From NCBI GenBank assembly GCA_000004985.1, contig GG738877.1: DNA of 64,000 nucleotides, one strand, 5' to 3'. The stretch's first letter is position 1; the number at the start of each line of letters is the position of its first letter. This DNA is from Naegleria gruberi. Lineage: Eukaryota. The notes below the pieces were generated by a model that was not told the origin of the DNA, ran no database searches, and worked only from the letters and a program-made list of their open reading frames with translations. Made by a program: the position numbers and the translations under genes. This document shows, piece by piece, positions 25,844 to 46,324 of the stretch.

Positions 25844-28800
25844 ATGTCTCGCAATAATGTCCACAATGGATCCACTGGTTGGACTCGTCGAGTAACCAAT
25901 CATCCAATGGACCACTCTTCCTCTTCTTCATCGTATAGTAATGGATCACCTGATCAACAACAGCAACAACAAGGAACACTTCCTCCTCCCCTACCACCAA
26001 GACGAGCAACCACAATTTCAACAAGACAGCAAGGGATTGAAATATCGAACGGAAATTCATCAACAAATAATACTTTAGTTTCTCAATTTGGTAATAGAAG
26101 TGATTTTTCTAGTAACATTCTTACAAGAAACAAATACGAACCCCATTCATCAACCGAGAGTAACAACAATCAATCTGCCTTTAATAATGAGAGTTATCAA
26201 AGTTATGCAGGTGTTGATGATCTAAATAGTACTTCTTTCAATAGATTTGAAACAAATCATCCATCTAACCAAACAAATGCTCCACCTAGCATTCCACAAA
26301 GGAAACCCAAATACCATTCACCCTCTCTGCTCAACAAATCTCCTCCTCCACCAATACCTCAAAAATCTATTAACCACATCCAACATGATTCTCCTTCAAA
26401 CAGCTCACCAACCTCTCCAAAATTCCTCAATAGAAATCCTCCCCCACCAATTCCAGGATCCCTCAAAGGGATAGACACTGACATTCGTTTAAAGGATGAT
26501 GAACAAAAGGAGGAGGTATTACCCAAACGTCAAGATATTGTGTCCTCTTCCATCAACATCAACTTTTCGGGTGATAGCACTGATGAGAACCATACGAAAC
26601 CAAAGAAAAATCGACCACCATCCATTCCATCATACTCTAGAGGATTTAATTCTGGTGCTGCTAATAGTAATTATTCTTCTATTGATCAAAGTTTGACTGG
26701 TAATAGTGCTGTTACAACAACTCCACCACCTTTGCCAATCAGAAAGATTGTTAACGATAAGAAACTTCTCGACTCACCAAACAGTGTAAATAGTGTTGGA
26801 AGTAATAGTAGTAGTTGCAGCTCATCTCTCAGTGATTCGTGCAACATTCTCAGTTATTTACATTCCAAACAGGGAGGAAATTTGAATATGGATTACCTAG
26901 ATACAGGCGACGAAGGTTCTCTGATGCAAGATGTGGAGTCAGAAGGAAATGATGAGTTTAGTTTTCCAAGCAATTCATATGAGGCAGAAAACGATCTGTC
27001 ATCACCTGGAAATGGTCAATCAGCCAAACCAATCGATTTTTCAGTAGACGAGGCACTCTTCAGACGAGTCAACTCAAAAGTGAAAACACTCTCTTTAAAT
27101 GGCATTTCTCGTTCTTCTTCATTGACTAGAAAAACATCTAGAACCCTTCACTACTCTTCACAAAACAAATCACACAACACCTCCTTTGTTGAATATCAAC
27201 AACAACATAATCACTCACCAACTGCTGCTTACACCTCTTCCGATCAATTTGGAAGTAGTAGTAATTCAACCAGCACAACAATTTTACCATCCGAAAGAAT
27301 TGAACAAGCAATGGAAATTGAAACGAAAAACAAACCTTGGTCACAAACAGATAAGACCTTGTCAGCTGAGGAAGAAGAATTATTGGCAAATTCAAGAGTT
27401 TCTCAACCTCATCTTCTTCAAGCCTACAAAGTTTTTAACACACCATTCCATATTATGAAACGAGTACCTGTAAAATATATGCGAGCACCTTTCCAGCCTA
27501 CTTTTGATGAAAACGATGGAATTGACCATAGTCATAATTATTGTGATAATTCAGAATCTTCTGTTTCTTCAGCACCAAAACAATCTTCTTCCGACTCCAG
27601 TGATGATGAATCGTCAACTAATACTGAAGAAGAAAGTATTACCACACCAAGAAATAGAAAGAGTTACTTTTTGAAATTGTCAGAAATTGATAAAATTTCT
27701 CTTGGTCAAACAGAAGATTCAGACCATCACACTATTCAGCAATCTCCTAGAAATAGTGTAACACCTAGAGCATCAATAAGAAGTAAAACAATTATTGGTA
27801 TGATAGGAGGAAACACGGAAAAGAAGGCAGTTGACGGTTTTGATGAAATTCAAGTTTTGGAAGCAAAGAAAAGTCTTGTCGAATTTGCCAAATATTCTGC
27901 TGGTAAAAAGAAGACTGACATTATTGAAAATATTGAACCAAAGAATGGAACTGTAATGGTAGTTAAAAACCCAGGATTAGATGCTGTGACAGAGACCATT
28001 ACTTCAAAAACACGTTTGATGAGTTGTTTAAAACCTGATTACATGTTCAAACCTTTGGAAGCTTCAATGTGCCAAAGAGTTTCTGATTTAGCTTATCCAG
28101 TTAAAAGAAAGACCAAATTCTTCCTTCAATGTACAAGTTTAAGATTTGAAAATATTCAAATGAAAGATAGAGAATTATTATTCTCATCAGTTGCCTTATA
28201 CGATATTCAATATGGTAGAAAATTATCAGAAGACTACCATTTCCATTTATTGCCTAATCAACAATTAAGCGATCTTCCACCTCTATTCAGAGATGAACTC
28301 AAAATTTATGAAGATGCAAGAGATATTTATTCTTCAATAATAGTTTCTCCAAAAAAGTTATTCACTGTTAGTTATCCAAATGACGAGGTCTATCTCGTAG
28401 CAACAATCTATAGAATTCCTACATCATCTATCCATGAGGCTGTTAAAATGTATTCTAAAGAAAATAAGAATATTGATAAGTGGTCTGATCAATACAATCA
28501 ACTTAAGGCCAAGCTAATTAGATTCAGACAGCCATTTTTATTTGGATTTACATCTTTATTTGTTAAGGAAATGATCAATGTTAAAGGGAAACAGGTTGAA
28601 TCTTTCAAATTGGAAGGTTCAAGATATGACATCAAACCATTCTATGAAGTTGATGGCGATTTTAAAAATCCAGTAGATTTTGTGACAATTATTAGAAACT
28701 CAATCAAGGATAAGAAAATTAAGAATAATCAAGTTCAAGGATCTATGCTGTTCACTGCTGAACTTCTTTCAAATTCTAGTTCTCAAAGTAATTATGAAAT

Positions 28801-31800
28801 TCAGCAAAAAATCCAAAATTCTAAATCAAGATTCTTAACAAGTCAAGGATCGAGATCTGATTTGGATTCCTCATTTGGGTCCCCAAGCTCAAGCTCTATT
28901 CTCGGATCAAGTACAGCATTCAGCTCACCAAGATCTGTTAATGAAAGTATAATATCTAGTTATGAGCATGATGGAACTGAGAGCCTTGTAAATCAAGAAC
29001 AACTCAATCAAGTTCAAGAATTTCCACTCCTCTCCTCTAACTATCCTAATCTATCCATGCAAAATACTTTGTTTATTTATCCTCAAAGTTTTATTATTGA
29101 AGGTGCATCCTCAGCAAAGAACATTTTTGCTGAAGTTTATTTTAGAGAAACAGACACAGCTCCTCCTAAAGTTGAAGATATTGATGGAAAAGCTGAAAAA
29201 AGATTTATTGCTTGGTTAAAGAAGGAGAGAACAACTTCTTTAATAACTTCCCTTTCGGTCGATTCGAGACAGCAAATATTATTGGATGAATTTAGATTGG
29301 AACTTCCAATGTATCCTATGGAAAAGCACCATTTATTATTTGTCTTTTACCATGTTGATATTGACAATAAGCATTCAAAGAAATTGGAATATGCAAATAG
29401 TTCCTTCGATTCAAGAAAAGAATTCTTTTCAACATCTGATAGAGCTATTATTGGATATGCTTTCCTCCCACTCACTAAGAGTATTCAACCAGATGAATGT
29501 GAGTACACTTTGAAACACAACCTTATCTACTTGCCTGATTGTAATGATGATATTACAATCTACAAGAAGGACTCTTTTAAGAGTAATTATTTGTCTGAGA
29601 ATAGTCTCAAACCTCTAAAGAGTTCAAAAATCAAAGTTAAAACCAATTTAGTATCGACTATACACCCTAGAGATCCAACTCTTGCATTATTTTATGCTTC
29701 TCTGACTGATCTCTACACAGCCGCTCCTGGTAAAACAATTGAAATATTGGATTTCTTGGAAGGTTTTGTTCTTCAAAAGTTTAACGAAATTGAATTCTCA
29801 GAGTTGTTACCTCACTTCCCAATTTTAATGAACCTACTTTTTGAATTGATGTGCAGAGTTTCTGAACTTACAACTGATGAACAACAAATTGAAAGCTTGG
29901 AAAGCTCTGTCTTTGAATCATTACTTGTTTGCCTAAGAGGATCCTACCACTTTACCAAACATCACACAAGAAGTAACAAGTATTTTACTAGTTATGTTAA
30001 ATTCATGTTTGAAAACATCAAGGGTAATCCACTTTTCTTGAATTTACCAAGAATAATAACAAGATTTATTTATGTTCCAGAAGGCAAGGAACTTGAGCCA
30101 GCAGAAGAAGGCAAATATATTAAGGAAATGAACAGGCTCAGTAAAAAGTATGGCAAGTCAGTCATAAAGAAAACTACCAGTTTGGAAAAGGATAAAAAGG
30201 AATACGAAAAGAAAAAGAATGAAGTATCTCCTCATGATCCTATCAGATTTTCTTGGTTCCTTTTCGATATTACTATCAAGAGTATAATTCTTTCAGGAGT
30301 GCCTAGCTCAGAAGATCACCACACTATGGATTACTTTACAGAAGTACCTGAAGACCTATTCTTCATATCATTGAAACAATTAATTGACAACTTTAATACA
30401 TGTGTCAACAAGTTAATGTTGAGTGATGGTACTGGAAGAAATAACATTGGGTTGAATGGTAATAGAAACTTGGCATTGTTCATTAGAGATTTGATCCCTA
30501 TTCTCAAAAGAGAACATGTGCTCAAACTGGTAAAGAAATACTTTAAATTCTTTAATGGATCGGATGAGAAACAACTTCGTTTGAAGAGTGAATTCATTAC
30601 TATCCTCAGTGACTATGAGCATTGGATTCCTATCAACAATTTATCATTGGAAGGAGGAAACTTTGGTGTCAAACATTTCAGCACGTTATTCTATCAAATT
30701 GTGGACAGTAAGAAGGATAGATTAATTAAGAAGATGACAAAGGTCTTACTCAACCACCTTTGTAAACTTGATTTTGACTCTAGATATGTTCATGAAAACT
30801 CAAAAGCCAATGTTTGTGAAATTTATCTCATCTTTGTTGATTTGTTCTTTGAAAAAGATGAGTACCTCACAATTTTCCAAGATGATGAGCTGTTTGTTGT
30901 ATTTTCATGCATTTTGTTGTGGATAATGAGAGGCTTATCAAAGCAAAGGTTAATTTCTTGGTTCAAGGTTCTACCATTCTTCAAGATTTTGAATATTTTG
31001 AACTTTTTGGACTATGTAACTATTGCTATTAACAATCTCGATTATGATCCAAAATCTAGAGTTGAAGATGATAGATCTCTTCGTACCGAAGTTTCCCTTG
31101 TTATTAATTACTTGATTTCTGTAATTGTATCAAATGTCACCTCAGACGGAGGATTTATTGATGAGCTGCAAATGCAAAGCGACAATATTGATCTTCTCTC
31201 TAATATCCAACTTGCTGATCCAAGTTTACTGAGACAAAGACAACTTGTATCCTACTATGAGGCAAAAAGCTTAAAGCAACAAGCTCCTCTTATTGGTCTA
31301 TTCTTTAGACAGATTTGTAGAGTTTTGATGAACAGTGTTCTTCAATTAACCTTGAGAAAGGAATTAGACTTGGTATATATTGTATTTAGAGAATCACTTT
31401 TACCTCTTATCAAAGAATGTACCAGTAAACTTGTGGTAAATGAGCTCTATGATCCAAACATTCCAAAGAAACAGAGAATTCCTATTGCTGAAAAGAGACA
31501 AGTCGAACAAAAGTGGAGATGGTTATTGGGTGCTGTTATGCTTCACTCAGGATTTACATCTGAAGAAGAGCAAAATGCTTATCCAATTGTCAAAGAATGT
31601 CAAAAACTTTTATTAGAACCTTTCAATAATGAACTGTTCAATGTGCAATTAGATAGTACCGATATTGAGGATGGTGATTTGCTATTGAACAATGAAGAGC
31701 ACAATATCAAAGCAGGTACATTCAAAAAACTTGTCGAAAGATTGCTTGACGTGGATACAAATCAAATTGACAAGGAGAGTCACAAGTATGGAGAAATCTT

Positions 31801-32983
31801 CCTCCTCACTTGCGCCTCTTTCACTCAACCAATTAATTTACTCACCCAACTTATTGAAATATTTAAAACAGCCGAAGAAACAGTCATCAAGCTCAGAGTT
31901 GAACAATTTATCAGCAAGTGGGTTAGATTCGGATTCCATGATTTTGACAATAATGTTATTGCCAAGCTTGTTACATTCCTTTCCAATATTTCTGGAGTTA
32001 CTCAAAAGAAGATTAAGAAATACATTATCAAACACTTCTTGAATGTCAAGATGGATATTTACACAGATGTTACAGCAGTACCACCAAATCCTCACATTCC
32101 AAAGAATATTCCAAAAGAAAAATTGGAAGAACCCCAAATGGATATCAGAAAGTGGAAGGAGGCCAAAAAGTTTACCAAACAATTAGATAATCCATTTGAT
32201 GTCAAGTTTGAACTTTTGGATTGGCCAAGTTTAGAAATTGCTAGACAATTGACAATCATTGAGGCAAAACTCTTCAAAAAGATTGAACCAAAAGAATTTT
32301 TCGGCTCAGCTTGGACTGACAAAGAGTACAAGCAAGAACTTGCACCAACACTGTGTGCAATAACTGAGAGAACTAACAATGTTAGTTTCTGGGTTAGAAA
32401 CAAGATACTTTTGGAGCCAAATTTGGAAATTAGAAAGAAAATTATGAAGAAATTTGTGGACATCCTTAGAGAGTTGAAAGAACTTCGAAACTATACCTCA
32501 ATCATTCAAATCACATCTGCATTTAATTCTGCCGAGATTCACAGACTGAAAAAGACAAAAGAAGGACTCAGCAAGCAAGATTTGGAACTTGTTGAAGAAT
32601 GCAGTAATTTGGTGAACAATAATTCCAAGGCATTGAGAGAACAATTGGAACGAGAAGTTATCATTAATGGTGCCCCAGCAGTTCCTGTTGTAGCAATCTA
32701 CTTTACTGATTTGGTATTTATTGAAGATGGTAATTTAGATTATTTTGAGCACAAATTGAACAAGAACAAGAAGCTAATCAACTTCCAAAAGAGAAGACTC
32801 TACTATAATACTGTCAATACTATCAAGACTCTTCAAACCAAATCCAAATACATTCTACAACCTCTTCCTTATCTTCACTATGTACTCAAGGAAGAAATTG
32901 TGCAAAATATCAAGACAGATGAGAAGGCCCTCTTTGATTTATCTCTCAAAGTTGAACCAAGAGCTCCAGCTACTAACAAATAA
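25844..32983 (+). CDS. Ras guanine-nucleotide exchange factor (RasGEF N-terminal domain plus CDC25-homology domain), 2379 aa, single exon.
   Basis: The C-terminus has a RasGEF_N-like block (TFKKLVERLLD...) and a CDC25 catalytic domain (LLDWPSLEIARQLTIIEAKLFKKIEPKEF..., ITSAFNSAEIHRLKKT, VPVVAIYFTDLVFIEDGN). The N-terminal 900 aa are S/N/P-rich with repeated PPPxP motifs. Confidence 0.85.
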   Translation: MSRNNVHNGSTGWTRRVTNHPMDHSSSSSSYSNGSPDQQQQQQGTLPPPLPPRRATTISTRQQGIEISNGNSSTNNTLVSQFGNRSDFSSNILTRNKYEPHSSTESNNNQSAFNNESYQSYAGVDDLNSTSFNRFETNHPSNQTNAPPSIPQRKPKYHSPSLLNKSPPPPIPQKSINHIQHDSPSNSSPTSPKFLNRNPPPPIPGSLKGIDTDIRLKDDEQKEEVLPKRQDIVSSSININFSGDSTDENHTKPKKNRPPSIPSYSRGFNSGAANSNYSSIDQSLTGNSAVTTTPPPLPIRKIVNDKKLLDSPNSVNSVGSNSSSCSSSLSDSCNILSYLHSKQGGNLNMDYLDTGDEGSLMQDVESEGNDEFSFPSNSYEAENDLSSPGNGQSAKPIDFSVDEALFRRVNSKVKTLSLNGISRSSSLTRKTSRTLHYSSQNKSHNTSFVEYQQQHNHSPTAAYTSSDQFGSSSNSTSTTILPSERIEQAMEIETKNKPWSQTDKTLSAEEEELLANSRVSQPHLLQAYKVFNTPFHIMKRVPVKYMRAPFQPTFDENDGIDHSHNYCDNSESSVSSAPKQSSSDSSDDESSTNTEEESITTPRNRKSYFLKLSEIDKISLGQTEDSDHHTIQQSPRNSVTPRASIRSKTIIGMIGGNTEKKAVDGFDEIQVLEAKKSLVEFAKYSAGKKKTDIIENIEPKNGTVMVVKNPGLDAVTETITSKTRLMSCLKPDYMFKPLEASMCQRVSDLAYPVKRKTKFFLQCTSLRFENIQMKDRELLFSSVALYDIQYGRKLSEDYHFHLLPNQQLSDLPPLFRDELKIYEDARDIYSSIIVSPKKLFTVSYPNDEVYLVATIYRIPTSSIHEAVKMYSKENKNIDKWSDQYNQLKAKLIRFRQPFLFGFTSLFVKEMINVKGKQVESFKLEGSRYDIKPFYEVDGDFKNPVDFVTIIRNSIKDKKIKNNQVQGSMLFTAELLSNSSSQSNYEIQQKIQNSKSRFLTSQGSRSDLDSSFGSPSSSSILGSSTAFSSPRSVNESIISSYEHDGTESLVNQEQLNQVQEFPLLSSNYPNLSMQNTLFIYPQSFIIEGASSAKNIFAEVYFRETDTAPPKVEDIDGKAEKRFIAWLKKERTTSLITSLSVDSRQQILLDEFRLELPMYPMEKHHLLFVFYHVDIDNKHSKKLEYANSSFDSRKEFFSTSDRAIIGYAFLPLTKSIQPDECEYTLKHNLIYLPDCNDDITIYKKDSFKSNYLSENSLKPLKSSKIKVKTNLVSTIHPRDPTLALFYASLTDLYTAAPGKTIEILDFLEGFVLQKFNEIEFSELLPHFPILMNLLFELMCRVSELTTDEQQIESLESSVFESLLVCLRGSYHFTKHHTRSNKYFTSYVKFMFENIKGNPLFLNLPRIITRFIYVPEGKELEPAEEGKYIKEMNRLSKKYGKSVIKKTTSLEKDKKEYEKKKNEVSPHDPIRFSWFLFDITIKSIILSGVPSSEDHHTMDYFTEVPEDLFFISLKQLIDNFNTCVNKLMLSDGTGRNNIGLNGNRNLALFIRDLIPILKREHVLKLVKKYFKFFNGSDEKQLRLKSEFITILSDYEHWIPINNLSLEGGNFGVKHFSTLFYQIVDSKKDRLIKKMTKVLLNHLCKLDFDSRYVHENSKANVCEIYLIFVDLFFEKDEYLTIFQDDELFVVFSCILLWIMRGLSKQRLISWFKVLPFFKILNILNFLDYVTIAINNLDYDPKSRVEDDRSLRTEVSLVINYLISVIVSNVTSDGGFIDELQMQSDNIDLLSNIQLADPSLLRQRQLVSYYEAKSLKQQAPLIGLFFRQICRVLMNSVLQLTLRKELDLVYIVFRESLLPLIKECTSKLVVNELYDPNIPKKQRIPIAEKRQVEQKWRWLLGAVMLHSGFTSEEEQNAYPIVKECQKLLLEPFNNELFNVQLDSTDIEDGDLLLNNEEHNIKAGTFKKLVERLLDVDTNQIDKESHKYGEIFLLTCASFTQPINLLTQLIEIFKTAEETVIKLRVEQFISKWVRFGFHDFDNNVIAKLVTFLSNISGVTQKKIKKYIIKHFLNVKMDIYTDVTAVPPNPHIPKNIPKEKLEEPQMDIRKWKEAKKFTKQLDNPFDVKFELLDWPSLEIARQLTIIEAKLFKKIEPKEFFGSAWTDKEYKQELAPTLCAITERTNNVSFWVRNKILLEPNLEIRKKIMKKFVDILRELKELRNYTSIIQITSAFNSAEIHRLKKTKEGLSKQDLELVEECSNLVNNNSKALREQLEREVIINGAPAVPVVAIYFTDLVFIEDGNLDYFEHKLNKNKKLINFQKRRLYYNTVNTIKTLQTKSKYILQPLPYLHYVLKEEIVQNIKTDEKALFDLSLKVEPRAPATNK

Positions 32984-40094: not shown

Positions 40095-40394
40095 ATGAGC
40101 AAATTACTTGCTGTTGTTGTCGGCGCAGCTATTGTTGTTAGTGCAGCTGGTGGATGGAAGAAATTGTTGAGTGCTAGAAATGTTCAAAATGCTGCCAAAC
40201 ATATTCGTGAAACAAAGGAAGTTTTCTTGTCCGAACTTAGCAATAAGCCAACCACCGGAGAAACATCATCTCAAACTACTCTCCCACCAAATTATACTTT
40301 TACAAATCCATCGGAGACACCTAAACCACAAGAAAATGTGTCACCTACTACAAATTCATCCACAACAACAACAACACCTGAGAAGAAGGAATAA
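40095..40394 (+). CDS. Hypothetical small membrane-anchored S/T/P-rich protein (99 aa).
   Basis: ATG after aaaaa. N-terminal hydrophobic segment LLAVVVGAAIVVSAAGG, then a T/S/P-rich tail. Confidence 0.4.
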   Translation: MSKLLAVVVGAAIVVSAAGGWKKLLSARNVQNAAKHIRETKEVFLSELSNKPTTGETSSQTTLPPNYTFTNPSETPKPQENVSPTTNSSTTTTTPEKKE

Positions 40395-40539
40395 TTTTAC
40401 TTTTTTTGTTGTTTTGCTTCCTGTTGCTGTTTAACGAGCATTTTCTGTTTCTTGTCTCGCTCCACCATTTTCAAATATTGATCAAATTCAAAACTATGAT
40501 TATTTGAGGATAATTGGAATAAATATTTTGGATTATTAC

Positions 40540-41940
40540 TTACTCTTTCTTGGATTTCATTTCATCAACAACCTCTTCAGCATATTCTGAGAAATTGAGA
40601 TCCATCACTTCCTTGTTTGAATCATCTTCGTTTCCTTCATCCACTTCAGCAAACATTGCTTGATAAGAGTCAAACCATTTTTCAATATCCTTATCACCAA
40701 ACATTTTCATGATTTTTTCCTTAATTCTCTTTGGCTTTTCACTTAATTGTAAACTCTTAGATTGTACAGGAGGGTTTCCAATATTCTTATAGCTATCCTT
40801 TCCACAAATTACTTTCAATGGTTTTACAGGATCTTTTAGATTAAAATCACTCGTTGACAATTTGCCTCCCAGAATGAAATAATTGATAAAGTTTCTGAAA
40901 GAGGAATCGTTATTTTCGTTAATTTTCATGTCATTGTAAATTCCCATAAACATTGGACTTGTTGAGAAGGTATGACACAAAAATCTAAATGTTTGATTGA
41001 GTTGCTTGAGTTGTAAACTGTTGAAATATTATTATTTACGACTGGATTGATTTTTCAACTTACGGATTGTACTTTTCAGAAGCCTTATCAAAAGACGTTC
41101 CCACAAAGATTGTTTGAATGCCATTGAATTTGATTTTCTCTCTTTTTAAAGTAGTAGATCAATAATCATAAAATCAATTCAAAATACCTACATGTCTTCA
41201 TGTTGTTCTCCGAATCTTTTCTTGGCTCTTGATATCATCTTATCAGGAATATCAGAACCTTTTTGTTTAAGTACACTGTATAAATCCTCAGTAATCTTTG
41301 AAAGAATGTATTGGAAATAAATAAAATCCTCAAATAATTGCATTGGTTTTGTCAAATCCAATACAATAACAGCAATCATTGTATGAATATTTTCAGCTGT
41401 CACTGTTTCTTTCAATAATTTTACAAGAGAACGTCCTCCGGCTAATTCCCAAATGTTTGCTACATAGGTTTTTAATCCTTCGTCCTTCTTACCGAAGGTA
41501 AATTCCAGAGCAGTACTCCTCTCTGGGCGGTCCTTAATATACTCTCTCTTTAAAATTCTATGTACAATACTACTCTTTCCGGATCGTTCTCCTCCGAGTA
41601 CAAAAACATTACTCTCCACTGGATCACTATTACTTGCAATTACATCCTTTTTAGTTTCTAGAATTACATCCCACAGTGTTTTAATGTTTCTTGAGGCTGT
41701 AGGATTTGATGATGGTGGACCTCCGGAGGATGATGTAGTAGAGCCACCTGAGGTTACAACAACACTTCTTCTTTGGGTAACAGCACTACTGGTTGGTCTT
41801 CCTACTGATGATCCTGGTCTTCTTGATGCAGAACCAGGTCTGTTTTGAGTCATTGAAGGTCTCATTGTTGGTTTTTGACCTCCAGCTGTAGATGAATTGG
41901 CGCCATTCACACCGGTTGGTGAGGTTGGAGATTCAGACAT
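40540..41940 (-). CDS. Dynein light intermediate chain (DLIC family; motifs closest to the dynein-2 LIC type). Three exons (minus strand): 41192..41940, 41064..41141, 40540..41017.
   Basis: First ATG at 41940 (MSESPTSPTG) after aaaa. Family motifs: TLWDVILETKKD, P-loop-like VLGGERSGKSSIV, ALEFTFGKK, IWELAGGRSL, IAVIVLDLTKP. Exon 2 (IQTIFVGTSFD) and exon 3 (ICGKDSYKNIGNPPVQ) are joined through GTAGGT (50-nt) and GTAAGT (46-nt) introns. Confidence 0.7.
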
Positions 41941-42111
41941 TTTTATTTGAGGTTTATTGAAAATTTTGTTCGTTGTGTTGGTTGTATTATTAAATGTTTT
42001 TGGCACAACTGTTTGTTTTACAAGCTGCTTTGTTATCAATCAAATCAGTAATGTTGTATGTGTGCCTTGCAAATATTGGAACAAGATAAATTAATCCTTT
42101 TGTTTTTTTAT

Positions 42112-43471
42112 TTAAATCCAATTGAGAGAGTTAATGTACTTTTGTTTCTTGAAAGAAATGCCTTGATAGACCTTATGCTTCTTGACAATTTCCTTATGGA
42201 CAACATCTGGTGGAACATAGAAAGGTTCCTTCCATTGATTCTTTTGATAGAGTTCAGAAACACTCATATCATATTCAGTTCTGAAGAAACTCATACCTGA
42301 TGGCTTCTTGCTTTCACTGATCAACTTGCTCAAATCGAAATATCTTCTTTGATTAATTTCAAAAGTCTTTGCTGTTTGTTCTGGTGTTTGAATTGGTCTG
42401 TAATCACTTCCCTTAATTTCATAACCAGTTTCTCCATCTATCGAGACCAAGTTACTATGGGCTTTGAATTTCTTATCTATAATTTGGTCAATATATTCAT
42501 ATTCGTATTGGTAAGCATTTCTTCTCATCTTTTCCTTCATTTTCTTGTTAAGTTCTTGATCTTGCTTCAAAACTTCATATTGTTGTGGTTGTTTGTATGA
42601 TTCAGTAGTCAACAAAGTTTCTCTAACTTTTTCAACATTTTCAATCTTTCCATTTTGTTTGTACAATAAGAAAATATAACGGAATGTACCAGCACATTCA
42701 GTTGGCAATGGTGGAATGTATGAACAAACAGTTTCACCCTTTGTAGCATCAGCACTTTCACCAGGAATATTGGCAACCATCCAGTGAATGAAACTACCCT
42801 TATCAGGAATGAGTCTGAATGGATAATCAGGTGTCAACATTACCAATGTATAAAAAGCTCCCTTTTCTCCTTCAAATGAAACTTTTGGTACTTGTTCAGT
42901 TGTCTTTGATTCAATGAAATTACCAAGCAATGAAGTATTTGAGAAAGTCTTGGTTTCGTTTTCTTTAGCAAAGGTAACATTGAGTGGAGTAGAAAGATTA
43001 GAAAGCAAGTCTTGTTTGAAGGTAGATTCTTCAACTTGCTTTGGGAAAAGATCAACATGAAGATCCAATTGTTCAAAAGCAGTAGCAGTCTATATAATTT
43101 TCATCGATTAAATTAATCATTGTTATCATCACTTCCGCAAATATTAAACTCACCTGTTGTTTCTTCTTTTCTTGCCATTCCTTTCCCGATACTTCCTTAA
43201 CTACAGGCATGTTTGATGGAGCCTTGCCCATATTCAAAACATCAATTCTAGCGAGCAAGTATCTATTTTCCTTTTGGAAGTCTGGATGGTCAAAAAATTG
43301 TTGAGTACTTTCTTCAATCTTTTCGGTTTTTACGAAAGATTGTTGATGATGTTGTTTAGTTCCGTTGGTTGCCTTTGTTGACTTTTTAATTTTAACCCTG
43401 TAGGTCGAATATGGTCTAGCGCCGGCTGGTGCTGATGAGGCGGAGCGCAAAAGGGTAGAGAATTTCTTCAT
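42112..43471 (-). CDS. PEBP-family protein, probably mitochondrial ribosomal protein L38-like. Two exons (minus strand): 43154..43471, 42112..43089.
   Basis: Exon 1 has a presequence-like start MKKFSTLLRSASSAPAGARPYSTYRVKIKK and ends at ..KKKQQ before GTGAGT. The 64-nt intron ends tatatag. Exon 2 carries the PEBP core YTLVMLTPDYP...GSFIHWMVANIPG. The ORF-track tail ..LIFAEVMITMINLIDENYIDCYCF is intron read-through. Confidence 0.7.
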
Positions 43472-43574: not shown

Positions 43575-46324
43575 TTATATGGAATAGTCCTTAAGATTAA
43601 TACCATATTTTTTACAAATGGCTTTCACTGTAAGTCCTTTCTCATTTTTGATATCAGTTTTACATGCTTTGCTACTTGTTATGAAGGTTATCATTGCCTT
43701 CTCAGAGTTTGTGAGGTCTCTATCTTTGACATCAATGAAACAATAGTGGAGAGGTGTATTTCCTTTCTTGTCTGCAATATTAACATCTATGGCTCTGTAA
43801 AGTTTCTTCTTCTTGTCAATTAGTTCACCAGAATGACTCAAAGTTGTAAGTCTCAGTAATTCTCTTACCATGACTGCTTTCTTTGTCTTGGCAGCAATGT
43901 GGAGAGGTGTCATTTTTCTCATATTGTCCTGATAGTTCAGTAAGGTTTGGACTCGTTGACTCACCATATTCTTCTTATAGTTTGGTACATTGCTCATTGT
44001 TTGCTGCAATAACATTTTATGCTCTTGCGATTCTCGTTCATTGAAAATGTTAATTAACTCTGACAACATGTCAACATCGCCTGACTTGGCTACTATGTGG
44101 AATACGTTCTCTCCACTATTGGAAGAGTTGGAAAGTGAATTAAAGATTTGGGTTTGATATTTGGAAGTTAAGAGATACCTAATGACATCAATTTGTGAGT
44201 TCTGAATTGCACAAAATAATGCTGACCAACCATGATCATTTCTTACCATGGTCAACAGAGTATGTGAATCTGGAAGATCGTTAATGAGAAATTTAACAAC
44301 TTCCATATCTCCATTTCCGAAAAAGTCGTGTAAAATTGTGCTACCATCATAGAGCTTGAGATTTACATCTGCTCCAAACAATAGTAAATCCTTAGCCATG
44401 TCAAAATGATGTTGTTTCAAAGCTAATCCAAGTGGTGAGAATCCATATTCATCTCTCACATTTGGCTAATTGGTGGAGTATGAAACAGGGTTTAGAATAA
44501 TTGACAAATATAAAAACTTACACTAGCATCATGACCTAACAGTAAAACCATACAAAAGTGGGATCCTGATGAACAAGCAACATGAAGTGGTGTTCTTGAC
44601 ACTTTGTCTTTCATATTGGGATCAGCATTACGATCGAGCAATAATTCCATTAGCTCAGTATTGTTCTCCCTTGCGCAAAGATGGAGGAAGCCTTTCTCCA
44701 TATCTTGAGTATTTTTCCAATTAATATCTACATTAAATTCATCCAAAATGAGTGTAGATGTAATAGCATCATTTTCTTTACAGGCAGCATATAACCTTTG
44801 ATTGAGCTGCATCTTGTCAAATCCCGCCATCTCTTTTCTGAGTACATTCTTCTTTCGTTCCAGTTCCTCTGACTCCTTTTGCTCAATGGTTTTTTCAGGC
44901 ATTGGGGTGTCTTTTCTCTCTTGTTGTAACTGTAAAACAGCTTGCAATAAATCAGAACCCTTCATAGAGGTTTTTGCAAGTAAATTATTAGTACTGCTCC
45001 TATGTTCCAGTACTATTCCAATTGTTTCCAAACTCATAGAAAGTCTGTGATCATCTATAACAGATTTTGAGAACTTGCTTCGAGATCCAGCCTTGGAGTA
45101 TTTTCTCTTTAAGCTTTGAGTGATTGAGTCCTTTGTTTGAGGATCGAGATGGAAACTAGTAGAAAGAGCGGCTGGTGAATCTACACTTCCAGTGGTTTCT
45201 ACGCTCATAGCACCTGGTGATGCAGAAGGAGTATTGCTAAATTTTGTTTGCAAATGAGGAGGTAATGTATGCTTAAGAGAACTGTTTGTGGCATTTCTCA
45301 AAATAGCAAGCTTGGTTGGAGTAATTGGACTCATTTGATTCATAACTTCATTTTTCATAGGAGTAGCAGCACTGATGGTTGACTTGCTTCTTGATTTTCT
45401 TCCTCGATTATTTCCTTCCAAAAATTCATCAATAACCTTGTCGTCAGACGATGGAGATGGATAGACAGGAGTTACAACAAGAGTGGTTTGTTCCTGTTGT
45501 AATTTTGTTGGAGTGCATTCATGTTGATGAGACATTCTCCTTTTTGAGTTTAAATTTGGTGATTGTGTTGTTCCATGAAGTGGTAAAAAATCAATATTTT
45601 CTTCTTGCTTTTTTGGAGTTTGCTTAGAAATGGCTGGTGATGAAACTTTTTGTCCCATTGAAAGGAGCATAGTTGAGTTGCCAAATATTGATTCTTCATT
45701 TGTTCCAAATGTATAATCACCCAAGTTGTTTTCACTCATCACGAATGCAATATTTACAGCAGATAAAGCACTGGTTAAATTAGGAGCTGATTTGGACAAT
45801 AATTCATTCAAATCCCTTTTTCCAATTGATGAAGCACTCAATCTTTCATCATCCTCCAGTGGTATATTTACATTGGCAAATACTGGATCATTATCTGTAA
45901 TTCTTGGCGAGGGAGCTCCTGAATACAAGAGCTGTCCTGAAATATCCATCATTCCATTTTCCGATGATGTAAATTGGTATAAATTAACTTGAGAATTACC
46001 CAAACTACTATTACTACTGCTATTACTGCTTGTTCCACTCCTTGATGTTTCTTCTGATGATTTTGTTGTTAGAGATTTGCCACTATTTGATGGATAAATA
46101 GGCGACGAGATGGTAATATTTTCCATGGTCATCACGACAGGTTCATTTCGAATGAATGTTGAATTATTAGAAACTCGAGCTTCATCATTAGATGATGAAG
46201 TATTTTGTTTTAGTGCTACACTCAACTCGAGAGAAGGTTGATAGACTTTGTGTGTCTCCCTCATTGTAGTTGTATCATTCCTTGAGTATTGTTGTGTTGT
46301 TTCTTCATGTTGGTGGGATGACAT
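43575..46324 (-). CDS. Ankyrin-repeat protein (about 898 aa). Two exons (minus strand): 44522..46324, 43575..44465.
   Basis: The N-terminal 400 aa are S/T-rich. ANK repeats span both exons (TPLHVACSSGSHFCMVLLLGHDAS | PNVRDEYGFSPLGLALKQHHFDMAKDLLLFGADVN...). A 56-nt GTAAGT...aattag intron joins them in frame. Confidence 0.7.

What the first reader, a model, noticed from the sequence alone, without database searches (positions are those of the whole stretch)
40540..41940. Dynein light intermediate chain whose motifs look dynein-2 (IFT dynein) type rather than dynein-1 type
The reconstructed 3-exon protein has TLWDVILETKKD, VLGGERSGKSSIV, IWELAGGRSL, IQTIFVGTSFD and ICGKDSYKNIGNPPVQ. From memory these align better with DYNC2LI1/XBX-1 (FWELGGGTSL, IIGSKYD, IGSPPVP) than with DYNC1LI (VWILDGD.., VVCTKCD). 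If this is a true dynein-2 LIC, the source organism has, or recently had, cilia/flagella. That would argue against a non-flagellate dictyostelid and hint at an amoeboflagellate lineage. Otherwise this is a divergent dynein-1 LIC.
Basis: inference. Interest (0 to 1): 0.55.

Follow-up and report, generated by a model that had tools for sequence, protein, structure and literature searches.

The report
Naegleria gruberi dynein-2 light intermediate chain

Summary
The window is Naegleria gruberi NEG-M: nine window ORFs are exact matches to its reference proteins. The minus-strand gene has four exons, not three. The CDS runs 41940..40397 and encodes 465 aa.

My spliced protein is residue-for-residue identical to EFC42882.1 / XP_002675626.1 / UniProt D2VK43 (NAEGRDRAFT_80259). 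[quoted passage not shown]

All five quoted motifs are present. The dynein-2 assignment holds:
- It scores 103 bits over the full length against human DYNC2LI1, and 23 bits over the N-terminus only against DYNC1LI2.
- Its motifs are dynein-2 type in a 102-sequence family alignment.
- In a neighbour-joining tree, a dynein-1 clade (vertebrates plus a fungus) separates from Naegleria plus human DYNC2LI1 in 200/200 bootstraps.
- An AlphaFold model (pLDDT 82) has the LIC Ras-like fold.

Published N. gruberi data list a DHC1b (dynein-2 heavy chain) gene that is induced during flagellate differentiation.

Small oddities: the G4 lysine is replaced (GTSFD), and there is an 85-aa disordered N-terminal extension. 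Whether Naegleria also has a separate dynein-1 LIC could not be tested. Already known; low interest.

The parts
41192..41940 (-). Exon 1 (749 nt), with ATG at 41940-41938. It encodes residues 1-249 plus two bases of codon 250: a disordered S/T/P/G-rich N-terminal extension (residues 1-~85) and the first half of the Ras-like domain.
   Evidence: It is identical to metagenome ORF P0002. The spliced protein equals EFC42882.1. pLDDT is <50 for residues 1-81.
41572..41595 (-). P-loop / Walker A codons, GGERSGKS (residues 116-123, GxxxxGK[ST]).
   Evidence: Read from the sequence. G116, G121 and K122 are invariant in the 60-sequence alignment; G and K are present in 99/102 dynein-2-type sequences.
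41142..41191 (-). Intron 1, 50 nt, GTAGGT...AAAAAG, phase 2.
   Evidence: It is needed to skip an in-frame TAG. The junction ...HEDIEKIKF... matches N. lovaniensis ...HEDIDKLKL....
41064..41141 (-). Exon 2 (78 nt), encoding EKIKFNGIQTIFVGTSFDKASEKYN, including the degenerate G4 motif GTSFD.
41018..41063 (-). Intron 2, 46 nt, GTAAGT...CAACAG, using the upstream of two in-phase acceptors.
   Evidence: The longer exon 3 gives PLQLKQLNQTFRFLCH, matching N. lovaniensis PLQLKQLNQTMRFLCH and human EKRKVICKTLRFVAH. It also matches the reference protein exactly.
40544..41017 (-). Exon 3 (474 nt), encoding the second half of the Ras-like domain, the GKDSYKNIGNPPV motif and most of the C-terminal helices.
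40494..40543 (-). Intron 3, 50 nt, GTAAGT...ATCATAG.
   Evidence: Splicing restores DFEFDQYLKMVERDKK, matching N. lovaniensis and human DLELEQYKR.
40397..40493 (-). Exon 4 (97 nt), encoding the last 31 residues, with the stop codon TAA at 40399-40397.
   Evidence: It extends the alignment with human DYNC2LI1 to residue 346 of 351 and raises the score from 93.8 to 103.3 bits.

Best explanation
The locus is the N. gruberi orthologue of DYNC2LI1 (also called D1bLIC, XBX-1 or LIC3), the light intermediate chain of dynein-2, the motor for retrograde intraflagellar transport. Shown here: it is a 465-aa protein with a disordered N-terminal extension, a Ras-like domain with an intact P-loop, and C-terminal helices collinear with human DYNC2LI1. 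Inferred from what is known of LIC3 (review PMC10886578, section 3.4): the Ras-like domain binds the tail of the dynein-2 heavy chain (helical bundle 6) and stabilises it. Two copies sit in the dynein-2 dimer and contact the intermediate and light chains in the autoinhibited form. The complex rides IFT-B trains to the flagellar tip as cargo and then drives trains back to the base. In Naegleria the protein would be needed when amoebae build two flagella de novo.
For: Organism: nine window ORFs are exact matches to N. gruberi NEG-M proteins on a 394.7-kb scaffold. [quoted passage not shown] Family: Pfam DLIC PF05783, 30.2 bits against a cut-off of 19.7. Subfamily by score: 103 bits full length against human DYNC2LI1 versus 23 bits N-terminal only against DYNC1LI2. 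In a local phmmer run the scores were 102 versus 26 bits, and all 150 best representatives of the family also score higher against dynein-2 than dynein-1 LIC. Control separation of the two subfamilies. Tree: dynein-1 (5 vertebrate plus Chaetomium) versus the rest in 200/200 bootstraps, with Naegleria on the human DYNC2LI1 side. Motifs: WELAGG (E in 101/102 dynein-2-type sequences; dynein-1 has WILDGD), FRFLCH (H in 90/102; dynein-1 has L), GKDSYKNIGNPPV, and the C-terminal YAEEVVDEMKSKKDFEFDQY. Structure: AlphaFold pLDDT 82, pTM 0.71. All of the top 24 PDB matches are LIC chains; 6rlb_F (dynein-2) has the highest TM-scores (0.50/0.72) and 6rlb_E/F the highest identity (23%) and the most aligned columns (359-367). 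Partner: N. gruberi 'Dynein DHC1b' at scaffold_33:280350-293193 is up in differentiation, log2FC 3.1-4.0 at 40-60 min. Conservation: 71-73% identity to N. lovaniensis C9374_003332.
Against: No functional or localisation data exist for this protein. I could not retrieve its expression profile because the held copy of Data S2 is cut. The dynein-1 comparison set is opisthokont only, and the dynein-2 set was chosen as the best hits of the Naegleria orthologue, so the tree is not an unbiased family phylogeny. Foldseek E-values do not separate dynein-1 from dynein-2 LIC (rank 1 is a dynein-1 chain, 9.7e-15 versus 1.4e-14). The lysine of the G4 motif ([ST]K[YF]D, K in 93/102 relatives) is serine here, so nucleotide binding may differ from that of other members. 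I could not check whether Naegleria has a separate dynein-1 LIC.
Confidence: 0.93

Rival explanations
1. It is the only LIC in Naegleria. It is dynein-2 type by descent but serves both cytoplasmic dynein-1 and dynein-2 heavy chains.
For: I found no Naegleria dynein-1 LIC, but I had no means to search the assembly for one. A preprint states that Naegleria lacks dynactin, which hints at a reduced dynein-1 accessory set. The LIC-binding site is one of the few tail regions conserved between the dynein-1 and dynein-2 heavy chains (PMC10886578).
Against: Absence of a dynein-1 LIC was not shown. The 471 family hits are anonymous, and only the top 150 were visible. The protein has no counterpart of the dynein-1 LIC C-terminal adaptor-binding helix: the PDB searches gave no match to the 6b9h/6psd peptides that the hamster dynein-1 LIC matched.
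Confidence: 0.05
2. It is a highly divergent dynein-1 LIC, the fallback reading of the first reader.
For: Pfam has one model for both subfamilies. Foldseek E-values for dynein-1 and dynein-2 chains are similar.
Against: The score gap is about 80 bits in favour of dynein-2, with full-length collinearity. The motifs are dynein-2 type. The dynein-1 clade excludes it in 200/200 bootstraps. There is no hit to fungal dynein-1 LIC.
Confidence: 0.01
3. It is a decaying or non-functional gene copy.
For: The G4 lysine is lost.
Against: The open reading frame is intact across four exons with canonical GT..AG introns. It is 71-73% identical to N. lovaniensis over the whole structured part. The P-loop and nearly all family-invariant positions are kept. 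The G4 change is shared by the related clade (Y in N. lovaniensis, H in P0133/P0135), so it is a lineage trait and not decay.
Confidence: 0.01

Closest known systems
Human DYNC2LI1 (LIC3), chains E/F of PDB 6RLB, 6SC2 and 8RGH
   Same: Collinear over essentially the whole human protein (residues 4-346 of 351; 103 bits, E=1.5e-28). It shares the P-loop, WELxGG, LRFxAH, GxDSxxxIGxPPV and the C-terminal YAExxVDEMxxxKDxExxQY. It gives the best TM-score and identity in the fold search.
   Different: Identity is only about 23-28%. Naegleria has an extra ~85-residue disordered S/T/P-rich N-terminus and a longer lysine/glutamine-rich C-terminal helix. The G4 motif is GTSFD instead of GSKYD.
Naegleria lovaniensis C9374_003332 (P0001, 507 aa; UniRef name 'Cytoplasmic dynein 2 light int...' as shown truncated)
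   Same: Orthologue with 71-73% identity. The sequence is continuous across all three splice junctions proposed here. It shares the N-terminal RPGSASRRPG motif and the loss of the G4 lysine.
   Different: It has a longer low-complexity N-terminus, and its G4 residue is Y rather than S.
Chlamydomonas D1bLIC and C. elegans XBX-1 (functionally characterised dynein-2 LICs; from general knowledge, sequences not retrieved here)
   Same: They are expected orthologues with a role in retrograde IFT and stabilisation of DHC1b.
Dynein-1 LICs (human DYNC1LI1/2; Chaetomium thermophilum LIC, PDB 4W7G)
   Same: They share the same Pfam family (PF05783), the same Ras-like fold and heavy-chain-binding role, and similar Foldseek E-values.
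   Different: Similarity is limited to the N-terminal ~130 residues (23-26 bits). Dynein-1 motifs are WILDGD, VVCTKCD and LRxFCLQ, and there is a long disordered C-terminal adaptor-binding region that this protein lacks (PMC10886578).

Membership tests
Dynein light intermediate chain superfamily (Pfam PF05783, DLIC) | Significant match to the family profile | tested here: met
   30.2 bits against a gathering cut-off of 19.7, E=2.8e-7, profile positions 4-135.
Dynein light intermediate chain superfamily (Pfam PF05783, DLIC) | Ras-like fold with a P-loop GxxxxGK[ST] | tested here: met
   GGERSGKS at residues 116-123. AlphaFold model has pLDDT 82. All 24 top PDB fold matches are LIC chains, followed by Rab GTPases.
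Dynein light intermediate chain superfamily (Pfam PF05783, DLIC) | G4 guanine-specificity motif [NTS]KxD | tested here: not met
   The motif is GTSFD: serine where 93/102 dynein-2-type relatives and the vertebrate dynein-1 LICs have lysine. N. lovaniensis has Y and P0133/P0135 have H. The fungal LIC 4w7g also lacks it (QNAE), so this is not a strict family requirement.
Dynein-2 LIC (DYNC2LI1 / D1bLIC / XBX-1) | Scores higher against dynein-2 LIC than dynein-1 LIC, with full-length collinearity | tested here: met
   103 versus 23 bits against PDB sequences and 102 versus 26 bits locally. Control separation is shown.
Dynein-2 LIC (DYNC2LI1 / D1bLIC / XBX-1) | Groups with dynein-2 LIC and outside the dynein-1 LIC clade in a phylogeny | tested here: met
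   Neighbour-joining tree, 108 sequences, 344 columns: dynein-1 versus rest in 200/200 bootstraps. Caveat: the dynein-1 sample is opisthokont only, the method is distance-based, and the dynein-2 sample is made of the query's own best hits.
Dynein-2 LIC (DYNC2LI1 / D1bLIC / XBX-1) | Subfamily motifs: WELGGG, LRFxAH, GxDSxxxIGxPP, and C-terminal YxExxVDxMRxQKDxEL | tested here: met
   The protein has IWELAGG, FRFLCH, GKDSYKNIGNPPV and YAEEVVDEMKSKKDFEF.
Dynein-2 LIC (DYNC2LI1 / D1bLIC / XBX-1) | No long disordered C-terminal adaptor-binding region (a feature of LIC1/2) | tested here: met
   The C-terminus is predicted helical (H369-402, H423-464) and aligns with the human DYNC2LI1 C-terminus. 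There is no match to the dynein-1 LIC helix-1 peptides. The criterion comes from PMC10886578.
Dynein-2 LIC (DYNC2LI1 / D1bLIC / XBX-1) | A dynein-2 heavy chain (DHC1b/DYNC2H1) and flagella in the same organism | tested here: met
   From the literature, not from the window. N. gruberi 'Dynein DHC1b' at scaffold_33:280350-293193 is induced in differentiation. Amoeboflagellate biology is described in PMC4819266.
Dynein-2 LIC (DYNC2LI1 / D1bLIC / XBX-1) | Binds the dynein-2 heavy chain tail and is needed for retrograde IFT | not testable with these tools
   This needs co-purification, localisation or knock-down in Naegleria.
Dynein-1 LIC (DYNC1LI1/2) | Full-length similarity including WILDGD, VVCTKCD and the C-terminal adaptor-binding helices | tested here: not met
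   Only N-terminal similarity of 23-26 bits. The motifs differ. The protein is excluded from the dynein-1 clade.

The most novel reading that the evidence does not exclude
The Naegleria-like clade of dynein-2 LICs (N. gruberi, N. lovaniensis, P0133-P0136, P0139) may have changed how the subunit is regulated. N. gruberi, N. lovaniensis, P0133 and P0135 have lost the G4 lysine. The Naegleria sequences, P0133 and P0135 carry a disordered N-terminal extension with a conserved RPGSA.R motif, a possible phosphorylation or docking site. These changes might tie dynein-2 assembly to the very rapid de novo building of flagella. Alternatively, this protein could be the sole LIC in Naegleria and serve both dynein-1 and dynein-2.
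Probability: 0.1. Interest if true: 0.35.

Novelty: already known. Interest (0 to 1): 0.08.

Why it matters
It matters little beyond quality control. The gene is in the N. gruberi reference annotation, and UniRef already names it as the dynein-2 LIC. Naegleria is known to build flagella and to carry the dynein-2 heavy chain. The case does show that motif-level reading of raw sequence can correctly infer both the subfamily of a protein and the lifestyle of the source organism. NCBI still labels the protein 'hypothetical', and that label could be updated.

Tried and rejected
1. After one search returned no N. gruberi protein, I inferred that the gene was unannotated. That was wrong. The exact look-up showed the reference protein is hidden in a 90% cluster whose representative is the exon-1 fragment P0002.
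2. The shorter intron-2 acceptor (423-aa model) and the 3-exon model ending at 40540 (434 aa) were rejected in favour of the 4-exon model.
4. The search with a 126-aa DYNC1LI2 fragment returned only short vertebrate fragments. Listing their clusters gave no full-length members. A 283-aa query then gave full-length dynein-1 LICs, but vertebrates only. No protist dynein-1 LIC was obtained, so the tree's dynein-1 clade is opisthokont only.
5. The look-up of encoding contigs for N. gruberi neighbour genes found nothing on record.
6. The bacterial promoter/terminator scan is not meaningful for this eukaryote.
7. Foldseek E-values do not discriminate dynein-1 from dynein-2 LIC. Only TM-score, identity and aligned length lean towards dynein-2.
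8. Literature searches for Naegleria plus DYNC2LI1, D1bLIC or the locus tag found nothing specific. The expression table held for the 2024 preprint is cut before the jgi_80259 row.

Full report
**Observation**

The region 40397-41940 carries a minus-strand gene.

The gene model needed two corrections:
- Intron 2 has two in-phase acceptors. The upstream one (intron 41063-41018) adds PLQLKQLNQTF. This aligns with human EKRKVICKTLRF and with N. lovaniensis PLQLKQLNQTM.
A 50-nt intron leads to a fourth exon (40493-40397) that encodes DFEFDQYLKMVERDKKQKMLVKQQQEAKQQKK.

With the fourth exon, the alignment to human DYNC2LI1 extends to residue 346 of 351, and the score rises from 93.8 to 103.3 bits.

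The final model has four exons (749, 78, 474 and 97 nt) and three GT..AG introns of 50, 46 and 50 nt. It encodes 465 aa.

**Source organism and annotation status**

Nine ORFs of the window are exact matches to Naegleria gruberi NEG-M proteins on a 394.7-kb scaffold. Window G+C is 34%.

My 465-aa spliced protein is an exact full-length match to EFC42882.1 / XP_002675626.1 / UniProt D2VK43 (NAEGRDRAFT_80259). NCBI calls it 'hypothetical protein'. [quoted passage not shown]

I first thought the gene was unannotated, because the homologue search listed only N. lovaniensis and three metagenome fragments. That was an artefact. The reference protein sits in a cluster represented by the exon-1 fragment P0002.

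**Dynein-2 or dynein-1 type**

Pfam has one model for both subfamilies, and the protein passes it (PF05783, 30.2 bits).

*Score against solved structures.* The protein matches human DYNC2LI1 at E=1.5e-28 (103 bits) across residues 87-450. It matches full-length human DYNC1LI2 only at E=2.6e-4 (23 bits), over the N-terminal ~130 residues. The fungal dynein-1 LIC 4w7g is not hit at all.

*Control.* A hamster dynein-1 LIC scores 105 bits against the fungal dynein-1 LIC and only 28 bits against human DYNC2LI1. Subfamily membership is therefore visible at this evolutionary distance.

*Wider family.* An exhaustive HMMER search with the N. lovaniensis orthologue found 471 relatives at E<=1e-3. All 150 listed representatives, and both Naegleria proteins, score higher against human dynein-2 LIC than against vertebrate dynein-1 LICs (median 156 versus 28 bits).

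*Tree.* I built a neighbour-joining tree of 108 sequences on 344 columns. The dynein-1 set (five vertebrate sequences plus Chaetomium) separates from everything else, including human DYNC2LI1 and Naegleria, in 200/200 bootstraps. N. gruberi pairs with N. lovaniensis (200/200). Both sit in a small clade with P0133-P0136 and P0139 (194/200).

*Motif columns*:

| Motif in N. gruberi | Dynein-2-type sequences | Dynein-1 LIC |
|---|---|---|
| IWELAGG | E in 101/102 | WILDGD |
| FRFLCH | H in 90/102 | L at that position |
| GKDSYKNIGNPPV | GxDSxxxIGxPP | not shared |
| YAEEVVDEMKSKKDFEFDQY (C-terminal) | YxExxVDxMRxQKDxEL | absent |

*Caveats.* The dynein-1 sample is opisthokont only. The dynein-2 sample consists of the query's own best hits. 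The tree uses a distance method.

**Structure**

An AlphaFold2 model built on a 60-sequence alignment has mean pLDDT 82 and pTM 0.71. Its parts are:
- a disordered N-terminus (residues 1-81);
- a Ras-like alpha/beta core from about residue 88 to about 360;
- C-terminal helices at 369-402 and 423-464.

In the Foldseek search of the PDB, the top 24 matches are all dynein LIC chains, followed by Rab GTPases. Dynein-1 and dynein-2 chains have similar E-values. The dynein-2 chain 6rlb_F has the highest TM-scores (0.50/0.72). Chains 6rlb_E/F have the highest identity (23%) and the most aligned columns (359-367). The fold confirms the family but only weakly discriminates the subfamily.

**Mechanism**

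*Shown here.* The protein has every sequence and fold feature of a dynein-2 LIC.

*Inferred from the literature on LIC3* (review PMC10886578, section 3.4):
- The Ras-like domain binds helical bundle 6 of the dynein-2 heavy-chain tail and stabilises the heavy chain.
- It contacts WDR60, Roadblock and LC8 in the autoinhibited complex.
- It contacts a neighbouring motor domain and IFT54 when dynein-2 is carried on anterograde IFT-B trains.
- It lacks the disordered adaptor-binding tail of the dynein-1 LICs.

*Partner in Naegleria.* The heavy chain exists. 'Dynein DHC1b' at scaffold_33:280350-293193 is flagged as up in differentiation, with log2FC 3.1-4.0 at 40-60 min (bioRxiv 10.1101/2024.01.08.573270, Data S2). 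Naegleria builds basal bodies and two flagella de novo during the switch from amoeba to flagellate (PMC4819266).

**Deviations worth noting**

- The lysine of the G4 motif ([ST]K[YF]D, K in 93/102 relatives) is serine in N. gruberi, tyrosine in N. lovaniensis and histidine in P0133/P0135.
- The ~85-residue disordered N-terminal extension is absent from human DYNC2LI1. It carries an RPGSA.R motif shared by the Naegleria sequences, P0133 and P0135.
- These are lineage traits and not signs of decay. The frame is intact, and identity to N. lovaniensis is 71-73%.

**Open point**

I could not search the N. gruberi assembly for a separate dynein-1 LIC. A reading in which this is the only LIC and serves both cytoplasmic dyneins is therefore not excluded. 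I give it about 5%.

**Verdict**

Its interpretation is supported on both counts: the protein is dynein-2 type and the source is an amoeboflagellate. The gene is already annotated and named in public databases, and its presence in Naegleria is expected. Already known; low interest.

Noticed in passing
window 40095-40394 (+): A 99-aa ATG ORF (MSKLLAVVVGAAIVVSAAGGW..., with a hydrophobic N-terminus and an S/T/P-rich tail) converges on the LIC gene. Its stop codon (40392-40394) is 2 nt from the LIC stop (40397-40399), so the 3' UTRs must overlap if both are expressed. It has no Pfam match, and the exact sequence is absent from the protein collection, so it appears unannotated in N. gruberi.
   Followed up: partly
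window 41139-41141 (-), codon for Ser266 in exon 2: The G4 nucleotide-specificity lysine of the LIC Ras-like domain is replaced: GTSFD here, GTYFD in N. lovaniensis, ATH[YS]D in P0133/P0135. K is present in 93/102 dynein-2-type LICs. This may mean altered or lost guanine-nucleotide binding in this lineage.
   Followed up: partly
window 41686-41940 (-), residues 1-85: A disordered S/T/P/G-rich N-terminal extension (pLDDT ~40) that human DYNC2LI1 lacks. It carries a short motif, RPGSASRRPGS, conserved in three other Naegleria-like sequences and seen as RPGSAARR / RPGSAMR in P0133/P0135.
   Followed up: partly
L001 1-3252 = window 43514-40264; L002: Metagenome contigs from run ERR1078381 (PRJEB11402, ENA ERZ929261) are 99.5% and 99.1% identical to the window over 3252 and 1399 bp. 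A close N. gruberi strain is therefore present in that sample.
   Followed up: partly
window 25844-32983 (+): A 2379-aa uninterrupted ORF combines a DOCK-type C2 (DHR-1) domain (residues 1071-1278) with RasGEF_N and a Cdc25-type RasGEF domain (1954-2318). DOCK C2 domains normally go with a DHR-2 Rho-GEF, so this pairing looks unusual. The exact ORF is not in the protein collection, so the reference model probably differs.
   Followed up: no
window 43575-46324 (-): Two adjacent same-strand ankyrin-repeat ORFs (294 aa and 610 aa) are separated by 32 nt. They are probably one spliced gene. The 610-aa ORF alone is not in the collection.
   Followed up: no
window 41941-42111: Only 171 bp separate the LIC start codon from the stop of the upstream PBP-domain gene (42112-43068, -). 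The LIC promoter and 5' UTR must lie in this short spacer or overlap the neighbouring gene.
   Followed up: no
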